From a virus (lineage: Duplodnaviria; Heunggongvirae; Uroviricota; Caudoviricetes), in IMG/VR virus record IMGVR_UViG_2737471857_000019: a DNA stretch of 33,990 nucleotides. The stretch is one strand, 5' to 3'. The notes under the pieces were generated by a model. It saw only the letters and a list, made by a program, of their open reading frames with translations. It was not told where the DNA came from and ran no database searches. Within the stretch, counting starts at the first letter, position 1; the number at the start of each line of letters is the position of its first letter. The position numbers and the translations under genes were made by a program. Below are positions 3,604-8,412 of the stretch, piece by piece.

Positions 3604-3843
3604 ATGGAGAACAAAATGATGGAAAAGCAGACCATTAATGCCGTCCGTTCCCGTGCCCGTGTGGCTATCCACACCACTGGCGGTCGTGTAACGGGGCAAC
3701 ATCACCGTTTACCTGTGGTTTATGCCTGCCCGCCCGTGGGTGGTCCTGTGTGGCCGGTAACGGAAATCATCCAGACATTCAGCGGCCTGCGCCGCGTGGT
3801 GAAAACGTCCTGTATCGACGGCTGTACCGTCGTATGGCAGTAA
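3604..3843 (+). CDS. hypothetical early-region protein (~75-80 aa)
   Basis: ORF in the early operon; start may be ATG 3616/3619 behind GGAG. Confidence 0.35.
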   Translation: MENKMMEKQTINAVRSRARVAIHTTGGRVTGQHHRLPVVYACPPVGGPVWPVTEIIQTFSGLRRVVKTSCIDGCTVVWQ

Positions 3844-3857
3844 AGAGAGGAATCAGA

Positions 3858-4109
3858 ATGAGTGTAAAACTATCTGTCGAATTTACAGAAATTGGGGGCG
3901 GTAAATGCCGGATTATGATGAAGATTGACAGGTCTGACTTTCAGACAGACGAAGAGATGGCCCGCGCGGTTAGTATGGCCGGAGCCATGATGGCTGTACT
4001 GAAAGAGCATCATGAGAACGAGGTAATTGATTTACAGGTTAACGGAGGGCGTCCCGTGCAATTAACGCCGGATGCTGTGTCAGGAACAGCAGGAAATCAG
4101 ATGCATTAA
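3858..4109 (+). CDS. hypothetical small acidic protein (83 aa)
   Basis: ATG 3858 with AGAGAGG SD; N-terminus MSVKLSVEF resembles the next ORF (MAVKLEVIIY). Confidence 0.5.
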   Translation: MSVKLSVEFTEIGGGKCRIMMKIDRSDFQTDEEMARAVSMAGAMMAVLKEHHENEVIDLQVNGGRPVQLTPDAVSGTAGNQMH

Positions 4110-5010: not shown

Positions 5011-5244
5011 ATGCATCAGGATATCAAAGAGTACAGAGCCGGAAATCGTTGCGCGGCGTATTCGCTGGGTGCATCCAGAGCAGAACAACGCGGCGATTAT
5101 GATGAGGCAGAAAAACTGTGGCGCAAGGCAGCGCAAAGCCCGTGTAGCACCCTGCGCCGCATCTGGGCTGAACATCGTGCGGAGTTCTGCGCTAACGCTC
5201 ACCTGAAGGGCTGGAGGCCACGCCATGAATGCGAAGAACTTTAA
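5011..5244 (+). CDS. small protein, possibly ANR-family regulator-like (77 aa)
   Basis: ATG 2 nt after the upstream stop; pattern GDYDEAEKLWRKA...RIWAEHRAEFC resembles ANR-type small proteins as recalled. Confidence 0.3.
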   Translation: MHQDIKEYRAGNRCAAYSLGASRAEQRGDYDEAEKLWRKAAQSPCSTLRRIWAEHRAEFCANAHLKGWRPRHECEEL

Positions 5245-5416
5245 TAAGCAGTATCCGGTAGGGACTCGCTTCATGCACACTGCACATCCGGCGTTGCGTG
5301 GTGGTCGTGTGGTGAAAACCGTTTCACCTGCCAGAGATTTTAAATGTGGTTGTGTGGTTGAAATTAATGTCGAGCCTTATTTCGTTAAAATCGAAACACT
5401 GAAAGCACCGCATTAA
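5225..5416 (+). CDS. hypothetical small protein (63 aa)
   Basis: ORF overlapping the previous stop; no family recognised. Confidence 0.3.
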   Translation: MNAKNFNKQYPVGTRFMHTAHPALRGGRVVKTVSPARDFKCGCVVEINVEPYFVKIETLKAPH

Positions 5417-5423
5417 TTTAATT

Positions 5424-5486
5424 TGTTTTTAATTGTTATTTAAAACAGGCGTAAACCCGCCGGGCTGGCTTACGCCTGAATTAAGG
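5424..5486 (+). repeat. leader repeat copy 1 (AT-rich box, hairpin, SD) upstream of the 5497 ORF
   Basis: About 60 bp highly similar to 6049-6111; hairpin arms CAGGCGTAA (5446-5454) and TTACGCCTG (5470-5478). Confidence 0.7.
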
Positions 5487-5496
5487 GGATTTGTAT

Positions 5497-6042
5497 ATGA
5501 AAGATAAAGTCTGGGATTTTATTGTTACTCCTGAAGGTTTTGCTACCCGTTCATCTGAGAAGTTAACCAATGTAACGTTATGGACGTCATCATTGCTGGG
5601 CCATCTGGGAGCACCTGCCGATTTTATGCATGTGGTACTTGATGCACAGATTGCCGGGAATGCTATGGCCAGTAAGGGGGCTTATATTCAGGGAGATTTG
5701 TTCGCCATGATGGCGAATGACACAGCAGCGCTGTATATCGCCACACGGAACATACTGACAAGAATATCCATGCTGTCTGACTGTAAGGATATGGAAGACC
5801 TCGCATACATCCTTGAAGATGATTTGCTCACTATCTCAGGTGTGCAGGAATCCCTCCCGCGTCAGTTGCGGTTTATTGACCTGATGGAGTCATATAAAGA
5901 TAAGCCTGATTTTTTTCAGATTCGATTCAGTGGAATGGAATTGCTGGATGAATATTATTCGCTGGATTCGATTTCCCGTGATGTGAAGGCGTTTGTTAAG
6001 TCTGTTGATCGCCATTACCGGAAAGCTGAACGCTGTAGTTAA
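5497..6042 (+). CDS. hypothetical protein, visibly AT-richer than its neighbours (182 aa from ATG 5497)
   Basis: ORF with AAGGGGA SD; preceded and followed by copies of the same leader repeat; no family recognised. Confidence 0.55.
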   Translation: MKDKVWDFIVTPEGFATRSSEKLTNVTLWTSSLLGHLGAPADFMHVVLDAQIAGNAMASKGAYIQGDLFAMMANDTAALYIATRNILTRISMLSDCKDMEDLAYILEDDLLTISGVQESLPRQLRFIDLMESYKDKPDFFQIRFSGMELLDEYYSLDSISRDVKAFVKSVDRHYRKAERCS

Positions 6043-6048
6043 TAAATC

Positions 6049-6111
6049 TGTTTTTAATTTTATTTGTATATGACGTAAACCAGTCAGGGCTGGCTTACGT
6101 CTGAATAAGAG
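6049..6111 (+). repeat. leader repeat copy 2 upstream of the 6121 ORF
   Basis: Aligns with 5424-5486; hairpin arms GACGTAA (6072-6078) and TTACGTC (6095-6101), with one compensatory base-pair change relative to copy 1. Confidence 0.7.
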
Positions 6112-6120
6112 AAATTCATT

Positions 6121-6837
6121 ATGGAAAATAAAAGTAAATACATTGCCAGAATTAAAAAACTGTTACGCCTTGCCAGAGGAACATCAAGCCCGGAAGAAGC
6201 CGCTAACGCTATTGCAAAAGCCCAGGCTTATATGCGCCAGCATGGTATCAGCGAAAACGACGCGGAATTGTTCGATATTCAGGAGGCTGCCAGCGCGGGT
6301 GCCCCCAGTAATGCTGTGATTTCGCCGCGCTATATGCATGTTCTGTGTAGTCTGGTCCGCAATGCCTTCGGGGTTGAATGTTATATCTCCTTTAAATATC
6401 TGGAATCTGGTTCACGTAAATGCTACGTGAAATTTTATGGACCTGGCAGCCGCCCGGAAATCGCTGCCTACGCGTTTGATGTGCTTTCCCGTCAGATGAT
6501 GGCAGAGCGCAGGAAATATCAGGATAAACACTGCAAGCGTTGCAAACCATCCACGCGGGTGGCCCGTGGCGACCAGTTCTGCGAAGGCTGGGTCTTTGGT
6601 GCCCGTGATGTCATTGCGGTGTATGACGTCTCCCCGGAAGAAAAAAGCCGCCTTGAGCTTTACAGAAAGAACCTGCACAGCACTAAAGGACTGTGTGACG
6701 GGGATATGCGCACGGCTAAAGCATGCCGGGGTGCAGAGTTTGCCGCTACAGCCGGTTTTATCGCCGGGAAAAATGCCAGGTTGCATCAGGGGGTTAATGG
6801 TCAGAGCAACAGACTGCTGGCACTGGGGAGGGGGTAA
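6121..6837 (+). CDS. DUF2786-like protein with C-terminal Cys cluster (238 aa)
   Basis: N-terminus IARIKKLLRLA...SPEEAANAIAKAQAYMRQHGI resembles the DUF2786 helical domain as recalled; HCKRCKP...FCEGW cysteines. Confidence 0.45.
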   Translation: MENKSKYIARIKKLLRLARGTSSPEEAANAIAKAQAYMRQHGISENDAELFDIQEAASAGAPSNAVISPRYMHVLCSLVRNAFGVECYISFKYLESGSRKCYVKFYGPGSRPEIAAYAFDVLSRQMMAERRKYQDKHCKRCKPSTRVARGDQFCEGWVFGARDVIAVYDVSPEEKSRLELYRKNLHSTKGLCDGDMRTAKACRGAEFAATAGFIAGKNARLHQGVNGQSNRLLALGRG

Positions 6838-7879: not shown

Positions 7880-8083
7880 TCAGATGAAAAACCGTAAGGC
7901 AAAAATTCTGTTAGCTCGCAGAAACGGTGTTGGGGTCTGGCGATGGTTGAGGATTAGTAACAGACGAGTGAGGTTGACGGGGTGTCGTGGTGTGATGGGG
8001 CACAGTTGTTGCAAAAAGCCCAGCGCGGCGCAAAACCGCTGGAAGAATCACACTAACGCAAAGTAATTAAATAATAACCAATA

Positions 8084-8111
8084 GCAGACCAAAATATATG
8101 TTTTGGTCTGC
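8084..8111 (+). promoter_or_regulatory. perfect 11 bp-stem hairpin / inverted repeat GCAGACCAAAA..TTTTGGTCTGC
   Basis: Read directly; overlaps a direct repeat ATGTTTTGGTC (8098-8108 and 8120-8130) just upstream of the 8134 ORF. Confidence 0.5.
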
Positions 8112-8133
8112 CAAAAGCGATGTTTTGGTCATT

Positions 8134-8412
8134 ATGAAGATTGAACAAATCGGAATGGCAGCCTTCCGGCAGCAGGCTGAAAGCGGTGGCGTGGATGAGT
8201 TCGTCGTGCAGCGGTTCGGTGGTGTGTATCACCTCTTCGCTGTGAATCGCCGCGCTGGTGTGTCTTATTTTCTACAGGAACGCCGTGGCGATTACAAGAC
8301 GTGGCTGTCTCTTGACCGTGCCGCCGCGTTCCTGTCAGGGATTGGCGTTTCACGTTTTACCGTGCGTTTTGAGGATAACAAACATGCTGAAAAAGATGAT
8401 CGGAGCCATTAA
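8134..8412 (+). CDS. hypothetical early protein (92 aa)
   Basis: ATG 8134 downstream of the hairpin; track start 8098 lies inside the hairpin. Confidence 0.35.
   Translation: MKIEQIGMAAFRQQAESGGVDEFVVQRFGGVYHLFAVNRRAGVSYFLQERRGDYKTWLSLDRAAAFLSGIGVSRFTVRFEDNKHAEKDDRSH

What the first reader, a model, noticed from the sequence alone, without database searches (positions are those of the whole stretch)
5424..6837. Two-gene module in which each gene carries its own copy of a ~60 bp leader repeat
The early region is otherwise a tight string of overlapping ORFs. Here two consecutive genes (5497-6042, 182 aa, AT-rich, no recognisable family; 6121-6837, DUF2786-like with a Cys cluster) are each preceded by the same element: an AT-rich box (TGTTTTTAATT.TTATTT), a hairpin, TGAAT.AAG, then the SD and start codon. 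This looks like an acquired, separately regulated cassette, the classic place for a defence or anti-defence moron in a prophage.
Basis: partly seen in the sequence, partly recalled or inferred. Interest (0 to 1): 0.65.

Follow-up and report, generated by a model that had tools for sequence, protein, structure and literature searches.

The report
Conserved hairpin linker flanking a prophage gene cassette
The two "leader repeats" are real copies of a strongly conserved, apparently undescribed intergenic hairpin element of Mu-like prophages of enterobacteria; the element marks the spot where accessory genes are swapped in and out, and here its two copies bracket one orphan gene of unknown function.

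Summary
Window 5409-5489 and 6033-6114 are two copies (about 80% identical) of one element: an AT-rich box, a 29-30 nt hairpin, a WRAWTY motif, then the SD and ATG.

Copy 1 is not private to the 181-aa gene. It is the ancestral, near-universal element that follows a 63-aa gene (p63) in Mu-like prophages of Enterobacterales. At least about 15 unrelated gene families sit directly downstream of it. The hairpin arms are 94-95% identical where the flanking sequence is only 40-50% identical.

Copy 2 is a lineage-specific duplicate. It arose with the insertion of the E. coli-only ORFan p181 between p63 and the DUF2786 gene. DUF2786 itself is an ordinary, widespread early gene of this phage clade.

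Sister prophages lack the p181 gene. They carry a single chimeric element, copy-1 left half joined to copy-2 right flank. This is the signature of homologous recombination inside the shared hairpin core. The closest analogue is the PeSL motif of T4-like phages.

The molecular role of the hairpin is inferred, not shown. Candidates are mRNA punctuation or processing, an antisense terminator, or a protein operator. No sigma-70 promoter, canonical terminator, Rfam family or defence-family match was found. The function of p181 remains unknown.

The parts
5225..5416 (+). p63: a 63-aa gene (phrog_5591) predicted to be an SH3-like small beta-barrel; the conserved upstream partner of the element
5417..5447 (+). 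Copy 1 AT-rich box
   Evidence: In the family, three TTTAAA-like boxes are phased about 11 bp apart, centred at -28, -17 and -6.
5448..5476 (+). Copy 1 hairpin GGCGTAAACCCGCCGGGCTGGCTTACGCC, extendable by the CA/TG pairs to 5446-5478
   Evidence: Folding. Covariance model hit at 5409-5489, 80.8 bits. Across the family, 98% of cells are paired and 4 pairs show double changes.
5477..5482 (+). Copy 1 conserved 3' motif TGAATT (family consensus WRAWTY); similarity between differing relatives ends at about this point
   Evidence: Positions +3 A 99%, +5 T 97%, +6 Y 98%. BLAST similarity of E. coli relatives that carry other downstream genes ends at query position 63-65.
5483..6042 (+). Private leader with SD (5483-5496) and the gene for p181, an E. 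coli-restricted ORFan (phrog_7741)
   Evidence: No Pfam or PADLOC match. Only E. coli homologues at 84% identity or more. No distant relatives. dN/dS about 0.28, so it is a real gene. AF2 pLDDT 45, all-helical, not usable.
6043..6071 (+). Copy 2 AT-rich box, sharing TGTTTTTAATT.TTATTT with copy 1
6072..6101 (+). Copy 2 hairpin GACGTAAACCAGTCAGGGCTGGCTTACGTC
   Evidence: Covariance model hit at 6033-6114, 74.5 bits. Folding z-score -3.8. The compensatory G-C to A-U change is seen only in this window.
6102..6107 (+). Copy 2 conserved 3' motif TGAATA
6121..6837 (+). DUF2786 + DUF7168 gene (phrog_421), a conserved early gene and not part of the cassette
   Evidence: Pfam matches above the curated cut-offs. 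Homologues in 23 of 80 related loci, some starting directly after DUF3164. In Yersinia it follows the single element directly.
5448..6071 (+). One repeat period (624 bp): the unit that is present or absent between related prophages, comprising the hairpin core, the p181 leader, the p181 gene and the AT box
   Evidence: L028 and L100 carry one chimeric element, copy-1 left half plus copy-2 right flank, followed by DUF2786. L014, L018 and L090 are analogous.

Best explanation
The repeat is a conserved intercistronic hairpin element of about 75 nt. It is specific to a clade of Mu-like prophages of Enterobacterales.

Its ancestral position is immediately after the 63-aa gene p63, at the border between the conserved early genes and a variable accessory-gene region.

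In this window a 624-bp cassette was inserted at that border, ahead of the conserved DUF2786 gene. The cassette holds the private leader, the ORFan p181 gene and a second element copy. The result is two direct repeats that bracket p181. Recombination within the shared hairpin core of about 37 bp adds or removes the cassette, as PeSL motifs do in T4-like phages.

This evolutionary part is shown by comparative data; I put it at about 0.85.

The hairpin is conserved even where it is single-copy, so it must also have a molecular job. The most likely job (inferred, about 0.35) is punctuation of the sense-strand polycistronic early mRNA. In this view a stable stem-loop sits outside the footprint of the ribosome terminating on the upstream gene. 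It is flanked by single-stranded AU-rich RNA and by an RNase E-type site (RN|WUU, for example CUGA|AUU). Cleavage there would separate the upstream transcript from the accessory-gene transcript, stabilise one or both, and give each plugged-in gene a standard expression context.

The function of p181 is unknown. It is an accessory prophage protein under purifying selection.
For: Family and position:
- An IMG/VR pattern scan returned about 55 distinct true elements. All have the layout stop codon, AT box, hairpin, WRAWTY, SD, ATG.
- An unbiased scan anchored on the DUF3164 protein returned 80 loci from many genera. The model hits 18 of them. All 18 are Enterobacterales, with one copy each on the gene strand, right after p63.
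- In complete E. coli genomes the element occurs only in the roughly 59 genomes that carry this prophage.

Conservation:
- Hairpin arms show 94-95% mean pairwise identity, against 42% for the p63 3' end, 49% for the AT box and 39% for the downstream leader.

Structure:
- 98% of cells are paired, 4 of 11 pairs have double changes, and 0 of 500 shuffles reach the observed values.
- 14 sense-only G.U cells are spread over 3 pairs, against 1 antisense-only cell.

Generic junction:
- About 15-17 unrelated protein families start 13-28 nt after the hairpin.
- L045 has three cassettes in tandem, each headed by an element. The middle element carries compensatory CC/GG to TC/GA changes.

Recombination:
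- L028 and L100, and L014, L018 and L090, have one chimeric element exactly where L001, L025 and the window have element, p181, element.
- p181 is in 28 of about 59 prophages.
- In L002 the DUF7448 insertion is likewise bounded by ...GCCTGAAT on both sides.
- Copies 1 and 2 share an AT-box variant not seen in other lineages, so copy 2 is a local duplicate.
- Outgroups have a single element, for example p63, element, DUF2786 in Yersinia.

RNase E motif:
- 74 of 79 elements match R-N-W-U at +2 to +5, with T at +5 in 97%. The consensus RN|WUU is taken from PMC5222698.
Against: - No experiment or transcript data were available, so the strand and the molecule (RNA or DNA) on which the hairpin acts are unresolved.
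- The conserved mid-stem A.C mismatch on the sense strand is a G.U pair on the antisense strand. The antisense hairpin is the more stable one in 24 of 28 distinct variants.
- 35 of 79 elements have at least 5 U in the 8 nt after the antisense hairpin, against 2 of 79 on the sense strand.
- RN|WUU is a low-information motif in AU-rich sequence.
- RNase E or mRNA stability alone does not explain why the stem sequence, and not just the pairing, is nearly invariant. That pattern fits recognition by a specific protein, or homogenisation by frequent recombination.
- Copy numbers per genome are low (1-3), unlike the dense PeSL arrays.
- The recombination inference rests on comparing end products, not on observed events.
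Confidence: 0.5

Rival explanations
1. The hairpin works on the opposite strand as an intrinsic terminator or insulator. It would stop leftward transcription coming from reverse-oriented accessory genes, or from the right, before it enters the transposase and immunity region. Its position in front of forward genes would then be incidental.
For: - The antisense stem is a perfect 10-bp GC-rich helix, because the sense A.C mismatch becomes a G.U pair. It is more stable in 24 of 28 variants.
- The antisense tail is AUUUUUAAAA-like, with at least 5 U in 8 nt in 35 of 79 elements.
- The scanner calls a terminator-like site on the minus strand at the L144 element.
- In E2348/69 and STEC346 a reverse-strand 72-aa gene with a good SD ends about 80 nt from the element and would run into it.
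Against: - The U-tract is poor in 44 of 79 elements, including window copy 2 (AUAUACAAAU).
- 14 variant cells keep pairing only on the sense strand.
- The conserved WRAWTY motif, and the constant geometry relative to the upstream stop codon and the downstream SD, are oriented with the genes.
- Reverse-oriented neighbours are rare among about 80 elements.
- No terminator call was made at either window copy.
Confidence: 0.15
2. The hairpin is the cognate operator, on RNA or on extruded DNA, of a specific protein. The most obvious candidate is the always-adjacent p63. The pair would control translation, stability or antitermination of whatever cassette follows, in the manner of Com/mom or N/nut. 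Extra copies would put added cassettes under the same control.
For: - The stem and loop sequence is near-invariant while p63 itself diverges to about 30-45% identity.
- p63 and the element co-occur strictly, and the spacing from the stop codon to the hairpin is fixed at 29-34 nt.
- p63 is a small beta-barrel, a fold class that includes KOW and Sm-type nucleic-acid binders.
- Some AT boxes resemble boxA followed by a hairpin, for example CTCTTTTAAA. This comparison is from my own memory of lambda nutL.
Against: - Co-occurrence is confounded with phylogeny.
- The boxA-like string is absent from both window copies.
- The P2-like half-elements have no p63 nearby.
Confidence: 0.12
3. Each repeat is an internal promoter plus a 5' leader hairpin, so that each gene is separately transcribed.
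For: - The AT-rich upstream box resembles an UP element or a -10 region.
- T at position -1 and A at position -2 are conserved.
- PeSLs, the closest analogue, do contain proven promoters (PMC2839356).
Against: - No sigma-70-like site was called at any of the 7 copies scanned.
- The best -10-like hexamer abuts the hairpin, so transcription would start inside the 5' arm and the conserved hairpin could not form in the RNA.
- The genes lie in one orientation within a tightly packed operon.
Confidence: 0.08
4. The element has no function of its own. It would be a selfish or hitch-hiking recombination scar, kept uniform by frequent gene conversion between co-resident Mu-like prophages.
For: - Breakpoints fall within the element.
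- Several hosts carry 2-3 related prophages, for example Paludibacterium, Avibacterium and H. influenzae.
Against: - The single-copy element is retained at the same position and in the same orientation in 18 of 18 hits across at least 10 genera.
- It shows compensatory changes and a conserved flanking motif. Gene conversion alone would not maintain pairing.
Confidence: 0.07

Closest known systems
PeSL (promoter-early stem-loop) motifs of T4-like phages (Arbiol, Comeau and Krisch 2010; Comeau et al. 2014; PMC2839356, PMC4122927)
   Same: A conserved composite intergenic motif (AT-rich stretch, stem-loop, SD and start of the next gene) that flanks ORFan cassettes in a variable region. Indels between sister phages have their breakpoints inside the motif. 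The motif serves as a homologous-recombination linker.
   Different: - The order of parts differs. PeSL runs stem-loop, AT-rich stretch, -35/-10, SD. Here it runs AT-rich box, stem-loop, SD.
- No sigma-70 consensus is found here.
- The sequences are unrelated.
- These are temperate transposable phages rather than T4-like lytic phages.
- There are 1-3 copies per genome rather than dozens.
- Promoter, terminator and mini-circle activities have not been tested here.
Morons of lambdoid phages (Juhala et al. 2000; from memory)
   Same: p181 is an extra gene with lower GC and a patchy distribution, inserted between two conserved genes.
   Different: Morons are defined as carrying their own promoter and terminator, and as lacking conserved flanking linkers. 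Here no promoter or terminator is detected, and the insertion is bounded by a conserved repeat.
Integron gene cassettes with attC sites
   Same: Each unit is an ORF plus an imperfect-palindrome element. The units form arrays in one orientation, and the boundaries fall at a fixed point of the element.
   Different: - There is no integrase.
- The element is conserved in sequence as well as in structure.
- The exchange is explained by homology.
- The element is tied to one phage clade.
REP/BIME and other intercistronic stabiliser hairpins; RNase E or RNase III processing sites of polycistronic phage early mRNAs, such as the T7 R sites (from memory)
   Same: A GC-rich hairpin between cistrons of an operon, with AU-rich single-stranded flanks. 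It shares the 9-mer GGCGTAAAC with some REPs.
   Different: - It is not dispersed in the host chromosome.
- The stem, at 12-13 bp, is too short for a canonical RNase III site.
- No processing data exist.
Lambda nut sites (boxA plus the boxB hairpin)
   Same: A U/A-rich box followed by a sequence-conserved hairpin early in an early operon.
   Different: No N-like protein is present, boxA is not conserved, the hairpin is much longer, and no downstream terminators have been identified.

Membership tests
PeSL-type recombination linker | A stable stem-loop in the intergenic motif | tested here: met
PeSL-type recombination linker | An AT-rich stretch, with the motif ending at the SD and start codon of the downstream, often ORFan, gene | tested here: met
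   About 15-17 downstream gene families.
PeSL-type recombination linker | Indels or replacements between close relatives whose breakpoints lie inside the motif | tested here: met
   Chimeric single elements in L028, L100, L014, L018 and L090. The DUF7448 insertion in L002.
PeSL-type recombination linker | A strong sigma-70-like early promoter (-35/-10) within the motif | tested here: not met
   No consensus hit at any of the 7 copies scanned.
PeSL-type recombination linker | The stem-loop acts as a terminator, and mini-circles form | not testable with these tools
   This needs reporter assays and inverse PCR.
Intrinsic (Rho-independent) terminator | A GC-rich hairpin followed directly by a U-tract | tested here: inconclusive
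   Sense strand: 2 of 79 elements have at least 5 U in 8 nt. Antisense strand: 35 of 79. No call at either window copy. One minus-strand call in L144.
Sigma-70 promoter | -35 and -10 hexamers with a 16-18 nt spacer | tested here: not met
Any Rfam family | A score at or above the family's gathering threshold | tested here: not met
   No hits at gathering thresholds. The best sub-threshold hit is Lnt, 26.5 against 55 bits.
REP/BIME host repeats | Dispersed in many copies in host intergenic regions | tested here: not met
   Found only in the roughly 59 E. coli genomes that carry the prophage, at 1-4 places each.
Moron | Own promoter and terminator flanking the inserted gene | tested here: not met
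Moron | Patchy presence among close relatives, and deviant base composition | tested here: met
   Present in 28 of about 59 prophages. GC 0.38-0.47 against 0.52-0.56.
DUF2786 / DUF7168 protein family (the second gene) | Pfam HMM score above the curated cut-off | tested here: met
   DUF7168 95.9 bits (cut-off 25.5). DUF2786 49.4 bits (cut-off 23.9).
Known anti-phage defence proteins (PADLOC) | An HMM match to a defence-system component | tested here: not met
   No family for p181 or DUF2786 at E up to 0.1. Anti-defence activity cannot be tested here.
Integron cassette / attC | A tyrosine-recombinase integrase and the R''/R' core sites | not tested
   No integrase is annotated in the related prophage early region. 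Core sites were not searched for.

The most novel reading that the evidence does not exclude
The hairpin and the adjacent 63-aa SH3-like protein p63 form a portable post-transcriptional control module. p63, or a host factor it recruits, would recognise the invariant stem-loop and set the translation, stability or read-through of whatever accessory gene is plugged in downstream. Recombination at the hairpin would then both capture a new gene and place it under this control. That would make it a homology-driven, integron-like cassette acquisition system in transposable phages.
Probability: 0.12. Interest if true: 0.8.

Novelty: new variant of a known kind. Interest (0 to 1): 0.55.

Why it matters
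- The element pinpoints a defined hot spot where Mu-like prophages of E. coli, Salmonella, Yersinia, Photorhabdus, Pectobacterium and other genera load and unload accessory genes. It can therefore serve as a search handle for finding such cargo, which may include defence or anti-defence genes.
- It would extend the PeSL idea, conserved regulatory linkers as vehicles of modular shuffling, from T4-like lytic phages to temperate transposable phages.
- A non-coding element kept about 95% identical while its neighbours are saturated with change is a strong candidate for a new cis-acting RNA or DNA signal. It is directly testable with end-mapping and reporter assays.

Tried and rejected
- **SD sequestration or translational coupling by pairing of the AT box with the SD.** The predicted SD pairing with the 5' flank (0.48) is no higher than with shuffled flanks (0.51, p = 0.2). 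Not supported beyond a composition effect.
- **Sigma-70 promoter.** No consensus hit.
- **Known RNA family.** None.
- **Host REP-like repeat.** Rejected on distribution.
- **p181 function.** No Pfam, PADLOC or PDB match. No distant homologues. No hit in the phage collection and a single plasmid hit. The AF2 model has pLDDT 45, so no fold search was attempted.
- **DUF2786.** Five papers mention the name; only titles and abstracts were seen and none concerns its function. No PDB relative.
- **P2-like phages.** They share the 5' half and the 3' flank of the element, but these do not fold into the long hairpin (z about -1.4). They are not counted as family members.
- **Strand assignment from G.U versus A.C asymmetry.** The signals contradict each other.
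- **A general literature search** for such an element in Mu-like phages found nothing relevant.
Full report
**1. Observation**

The 63-aa ORF at 5225-5416 is followed by an 80-nt gap, the 181-aa ORF at 5497-6042, a 78-nt gap, and the 238-aa ORF at 6121-6837.

The two gaps align at 85% column identity with two single-base indels. Each gap contains:
- an AT-rich box (5417-5447 and 6043-6071);
- a hairpin (5448-5476 GGCGTAAACCCGCCGGGCTGGCTTACGCC, and 6072-6101 GACGTAAACCAGTCAGGGCTGGCTTACGTC);
- TGAATT or TGAATA;
- an SD and then ATG.

Copy 2 differs from copy 1 by a compensatory G-C to A-T exchange in the stem. A covariance model (R1) built from family members finds exactly these two sites in the 34-kb window, at 80.8 and 74.5 bits. 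The remaining early region is tightly packed. The unit is about 75-80 nt rather than 60.

**2. The window and its relatives**

The window is a Mu-like prophage encoding MuA, MuB, DUF3164, ANR, GemA and Mor. It is 92-94% identical to prophages in 58 of 5,426 complete E. coli genomes.

The element is not a host repeat. In E. coli it occurs only in those prophages. Rfam has no match.

**3. A conserved element family**

A pattern scan of IMG/VR returned about 55 distinct true copies. All share one layout:
- the stop codon of the upstream gene;
- about 31 nt of AT-rich sequence, with three TTTAAA-like boxes phased about 11 bp apart;
- a nearly invariant hairpin, GGCGTAAACCCGC(C/A)GGGGCTGGCTTACGCC;
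- the motif WRAWTY, with +3 A at 99%, +5 T at 97% and +6 Y at 98%;
- an SD, then an ATG 13-28 nt after the hairpin.

To remove the bias of the pattern scan, I anchored a genome scan on the neighbouring DUF3164 protein. This gave 80 loci from gamma- and beta-proteobacteria and others.

R1 hits 18 of these loci. All 18 are Enterobacterales: Photorhabdus, Xenorhabdus, Buttiauxella, Trabulsiella, Phytobacter, Pantoea, Lonsdalea, Yersinia, Pectobacterium and Symbiopectobacterium. Each has one copy, on the gene strand, directly after a p63 homologue. Loci from Pseudomonas, Pasteurellaceae, Neisseriales and Burkholderiales have neither p63 nor the element. In several of them (Pseudomonas and a Neisseriaceae bacterium) DUF2786 starts a few nt after DUF3164.

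In the 18 unbiased loci the hairpin arms are 94-95% identical on average. The p63 3' end is 42% identical, the AT box 49% and the downstream leader 39%.

On a 58-sequence alignment, 98% of cells are paired and 4 of 11 pairs show double changes. None of 500 shuffles reaches the observed values. Examples of double changes are GGCGTGA/TCACGCC in Pantoea and CC/GG to TC/GA in L045.

**4. A generic junction for accessory genes**

About 15-17 unrelated protein families start right after the element. They include DUF2786, DUF7448, a GemA-like protein by its N-terminal sequence (from memory, not checked against a family library), small zinc-ribbon proteins and p181.

Locus L045 has three consecutive cassettes, each headed by an element. 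E. coli B1172 (L002) has this order: p63, element, DUF7448, degenerate element, p181, element, remnant of a reverse-strand gene, DUF2786.

**5. How the window's arrangement arose**

Among close relatives, L001, L004, L025 and the window have element, p181, element. L028 and L100 have a single element made of the copy-1 left part (p63 end, copy-1 AT box, copy-1 loop variant) and the copy-2 right flank, running straight into DUF2786. L014, L018 and L090 are the same kind of chimera relative to L025, L002 and L004.

p181 is present in 28 of the roughly 59 prophage-bearing E. coli genomes.

Copies 1 and 2 share an AT-box variant (TGTTTTTAATT.TTATTT) that other lineages lack. Outgroups have one element, for example p63, element, DUF2786 in Yersinia. 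The double-element state is therefore derived.

I read this as a 624-bp unit added and lost by homologous recombination within the shared core of about 37 bp. The unit comprises the hairpin core, the p181 leader, the p181 gene and the AT box. This is the logic described for PeSL motifs of T4-like phages (PMC2839356, PMC4122927).

**6. The proteins**

- **p181.** It has no Pfam, PADLOC or PDB match. Its homologues are only from E. coli, at 84% identity or more. It has no distant relatives among 1.84 billion representative proteins. One copy sits on an E. albertii plasmid. dN/dS is about 0.28, so it is a real gene under purifying selection. The AF2 model is unusable (pLDDT 45, all-helical).
- **The 238-aa protein.** It is DUF2786 plus DUF7168. 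It is a common early gene of the clade. Its function is unknown.
- **p63.** It models as an SH3-like small beta-barrel (pLDDT 83). Its structural neighbours are only generic.

**7. What the hairpin does (inferred)**

Facts that constrain the answer:
- It keeps a fixed orientation relative to the genes.
- Both flanks are AU-rich.
- The 3' motif is nearly invariant and matches the RNase E core RN|WUU with U at +2 (PMC5222698).
- There is no sigma-70 consensus at any of 7 copies.
- There is no sense-strand U-tract.

I therefore favour a sense-strand mRNA punctuation, processing or stability element. This is not shown.

The counter-evidence is real. The conserved A.C mismatch is a G.U pair on the antisense strand. 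The antisense hairpin is more stable in 24 of 28 variants. Also, 35 of 79 elements have a U-rich antisense tail. In E2348/69 a reverse-strand gene would terminate at the element.

In the other direction, 14 variant cells keep pairing only on the sense strand, against 1 on the antisense strand.

The near-invariance of the stem sequence and its strict association with p63 keep a protein-operator model alive. SD sequestration by the AT box was tested and is no better than with shuffled flanks.

**8. Verdict**

One gene, not two, is an acquired cassette. The "leader" is a clade-wide element. Separate regulation and a defence role are unsupported.
- I found no description of this element. It is best filed as a new variant of the PeSL-type linker or intercistronic-hairpin kind.
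- Interest is moderate. The evolutionary story is clear and useful, the conservation is unusual, and the molecular function is still open.

Noticed in passing
window 5446-5454 and 6070-6078; family-wide: In 60 of 73 distinct elements the first G of the hairpin completes an ATG or TTG, which is followed by GCG (or ACG) and TAA. This makes a two-codon mini-ORF (ATG GCG TAA) inside the 5' arm. Window copy 2 has ATG ACG TAA. Window copy 1 and all 13 E. coli-type first copies have CAG instead. The Pantoea stem variant GGCGTGA still ends in a stop codon (TGA). There is no SD upstream.
   Followed up: partly
L125 (PSP3) about 2497-2545; L127 (Fels-2) about 2499-2545; many Klebsiella, Salmonella and Yersinia P2-like phages: P2-like phages carry AATTAATGGCGTAAACCCGCCGGG...GCC(T/C)AAATTCAGGAG between a DUF5347 gene and the orf79-like DUF2732 gene. 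This matches the 5' half and the 3' flank of the element but lacks the 3' arm, and it does not fold into the long hairpin. It may be an old recombination joint between phage families, or a shared short signal.
   Followed up: partly
L208 (E. coli E2348/69) 3641-3859, minus strand; L003 2933-3151, minus strand; remnants in L002, L004, L014, L018, L025 and L090: A reverse-oriented 72-aa gene (WP_000564495.1) with a strong SD sits directly after the element in some relatives. Truncated remnants of about 190 nt sit at the same place in others. Read in the antisense direction, the element would be its terminator.
   Followed up: partly
window 8082-8130: Two adjacent, nearly identical palindromes, GACCAAAA(TATAT/GCGAT)GTTTTGGTC, overlap the start of ORF 8098-8412. 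The first is called terminator-like on the minus strand. This could be an operator or a regulatory hairpin.
   Followed up: no
L002 2185-2241: The element after the DUF7448 cassette in E. coli B1172 is a degenerate version, GGCGCAGGTAAACAGGTCTGCGCCTGAAT (R1 25.6 bits). It keeps the flanking GGCG..CGCC, a GTAAAC string and the CTGAAT junction.
   Followed up: partly
NZ_CP043265.1 (Escherichia albertii plasmid) 159334-159876: A p181 homologue (91% aa identity) lies on a 200-kb conjugative plasmid. This suggests that a copy of the Mu-like prophage has transposed into a plasmid.
   Followed up: no
L128 and L129 (Photorhabdus australis); L165/L167 (Avibacterium paragallinarum); L157/L181 (H. influenzae); L180/L184/L198 (Paludibacterium): Several genomes carry two or three related Mu-like prophages. 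The two P. australis loci, on different scaffolds, gave identical match statistics and an identical contig range. Co-resident copies would provide partners for element-mediated recombination.
   Followed up: no
window 5011-5244: The gene before p63 is annotated in relatives as an ANR-family (AraC negative regulator) protein. Here it gives only weak TPR-like Pfam hits. It is present in only some of the loci that have the element.
   Followed up: no
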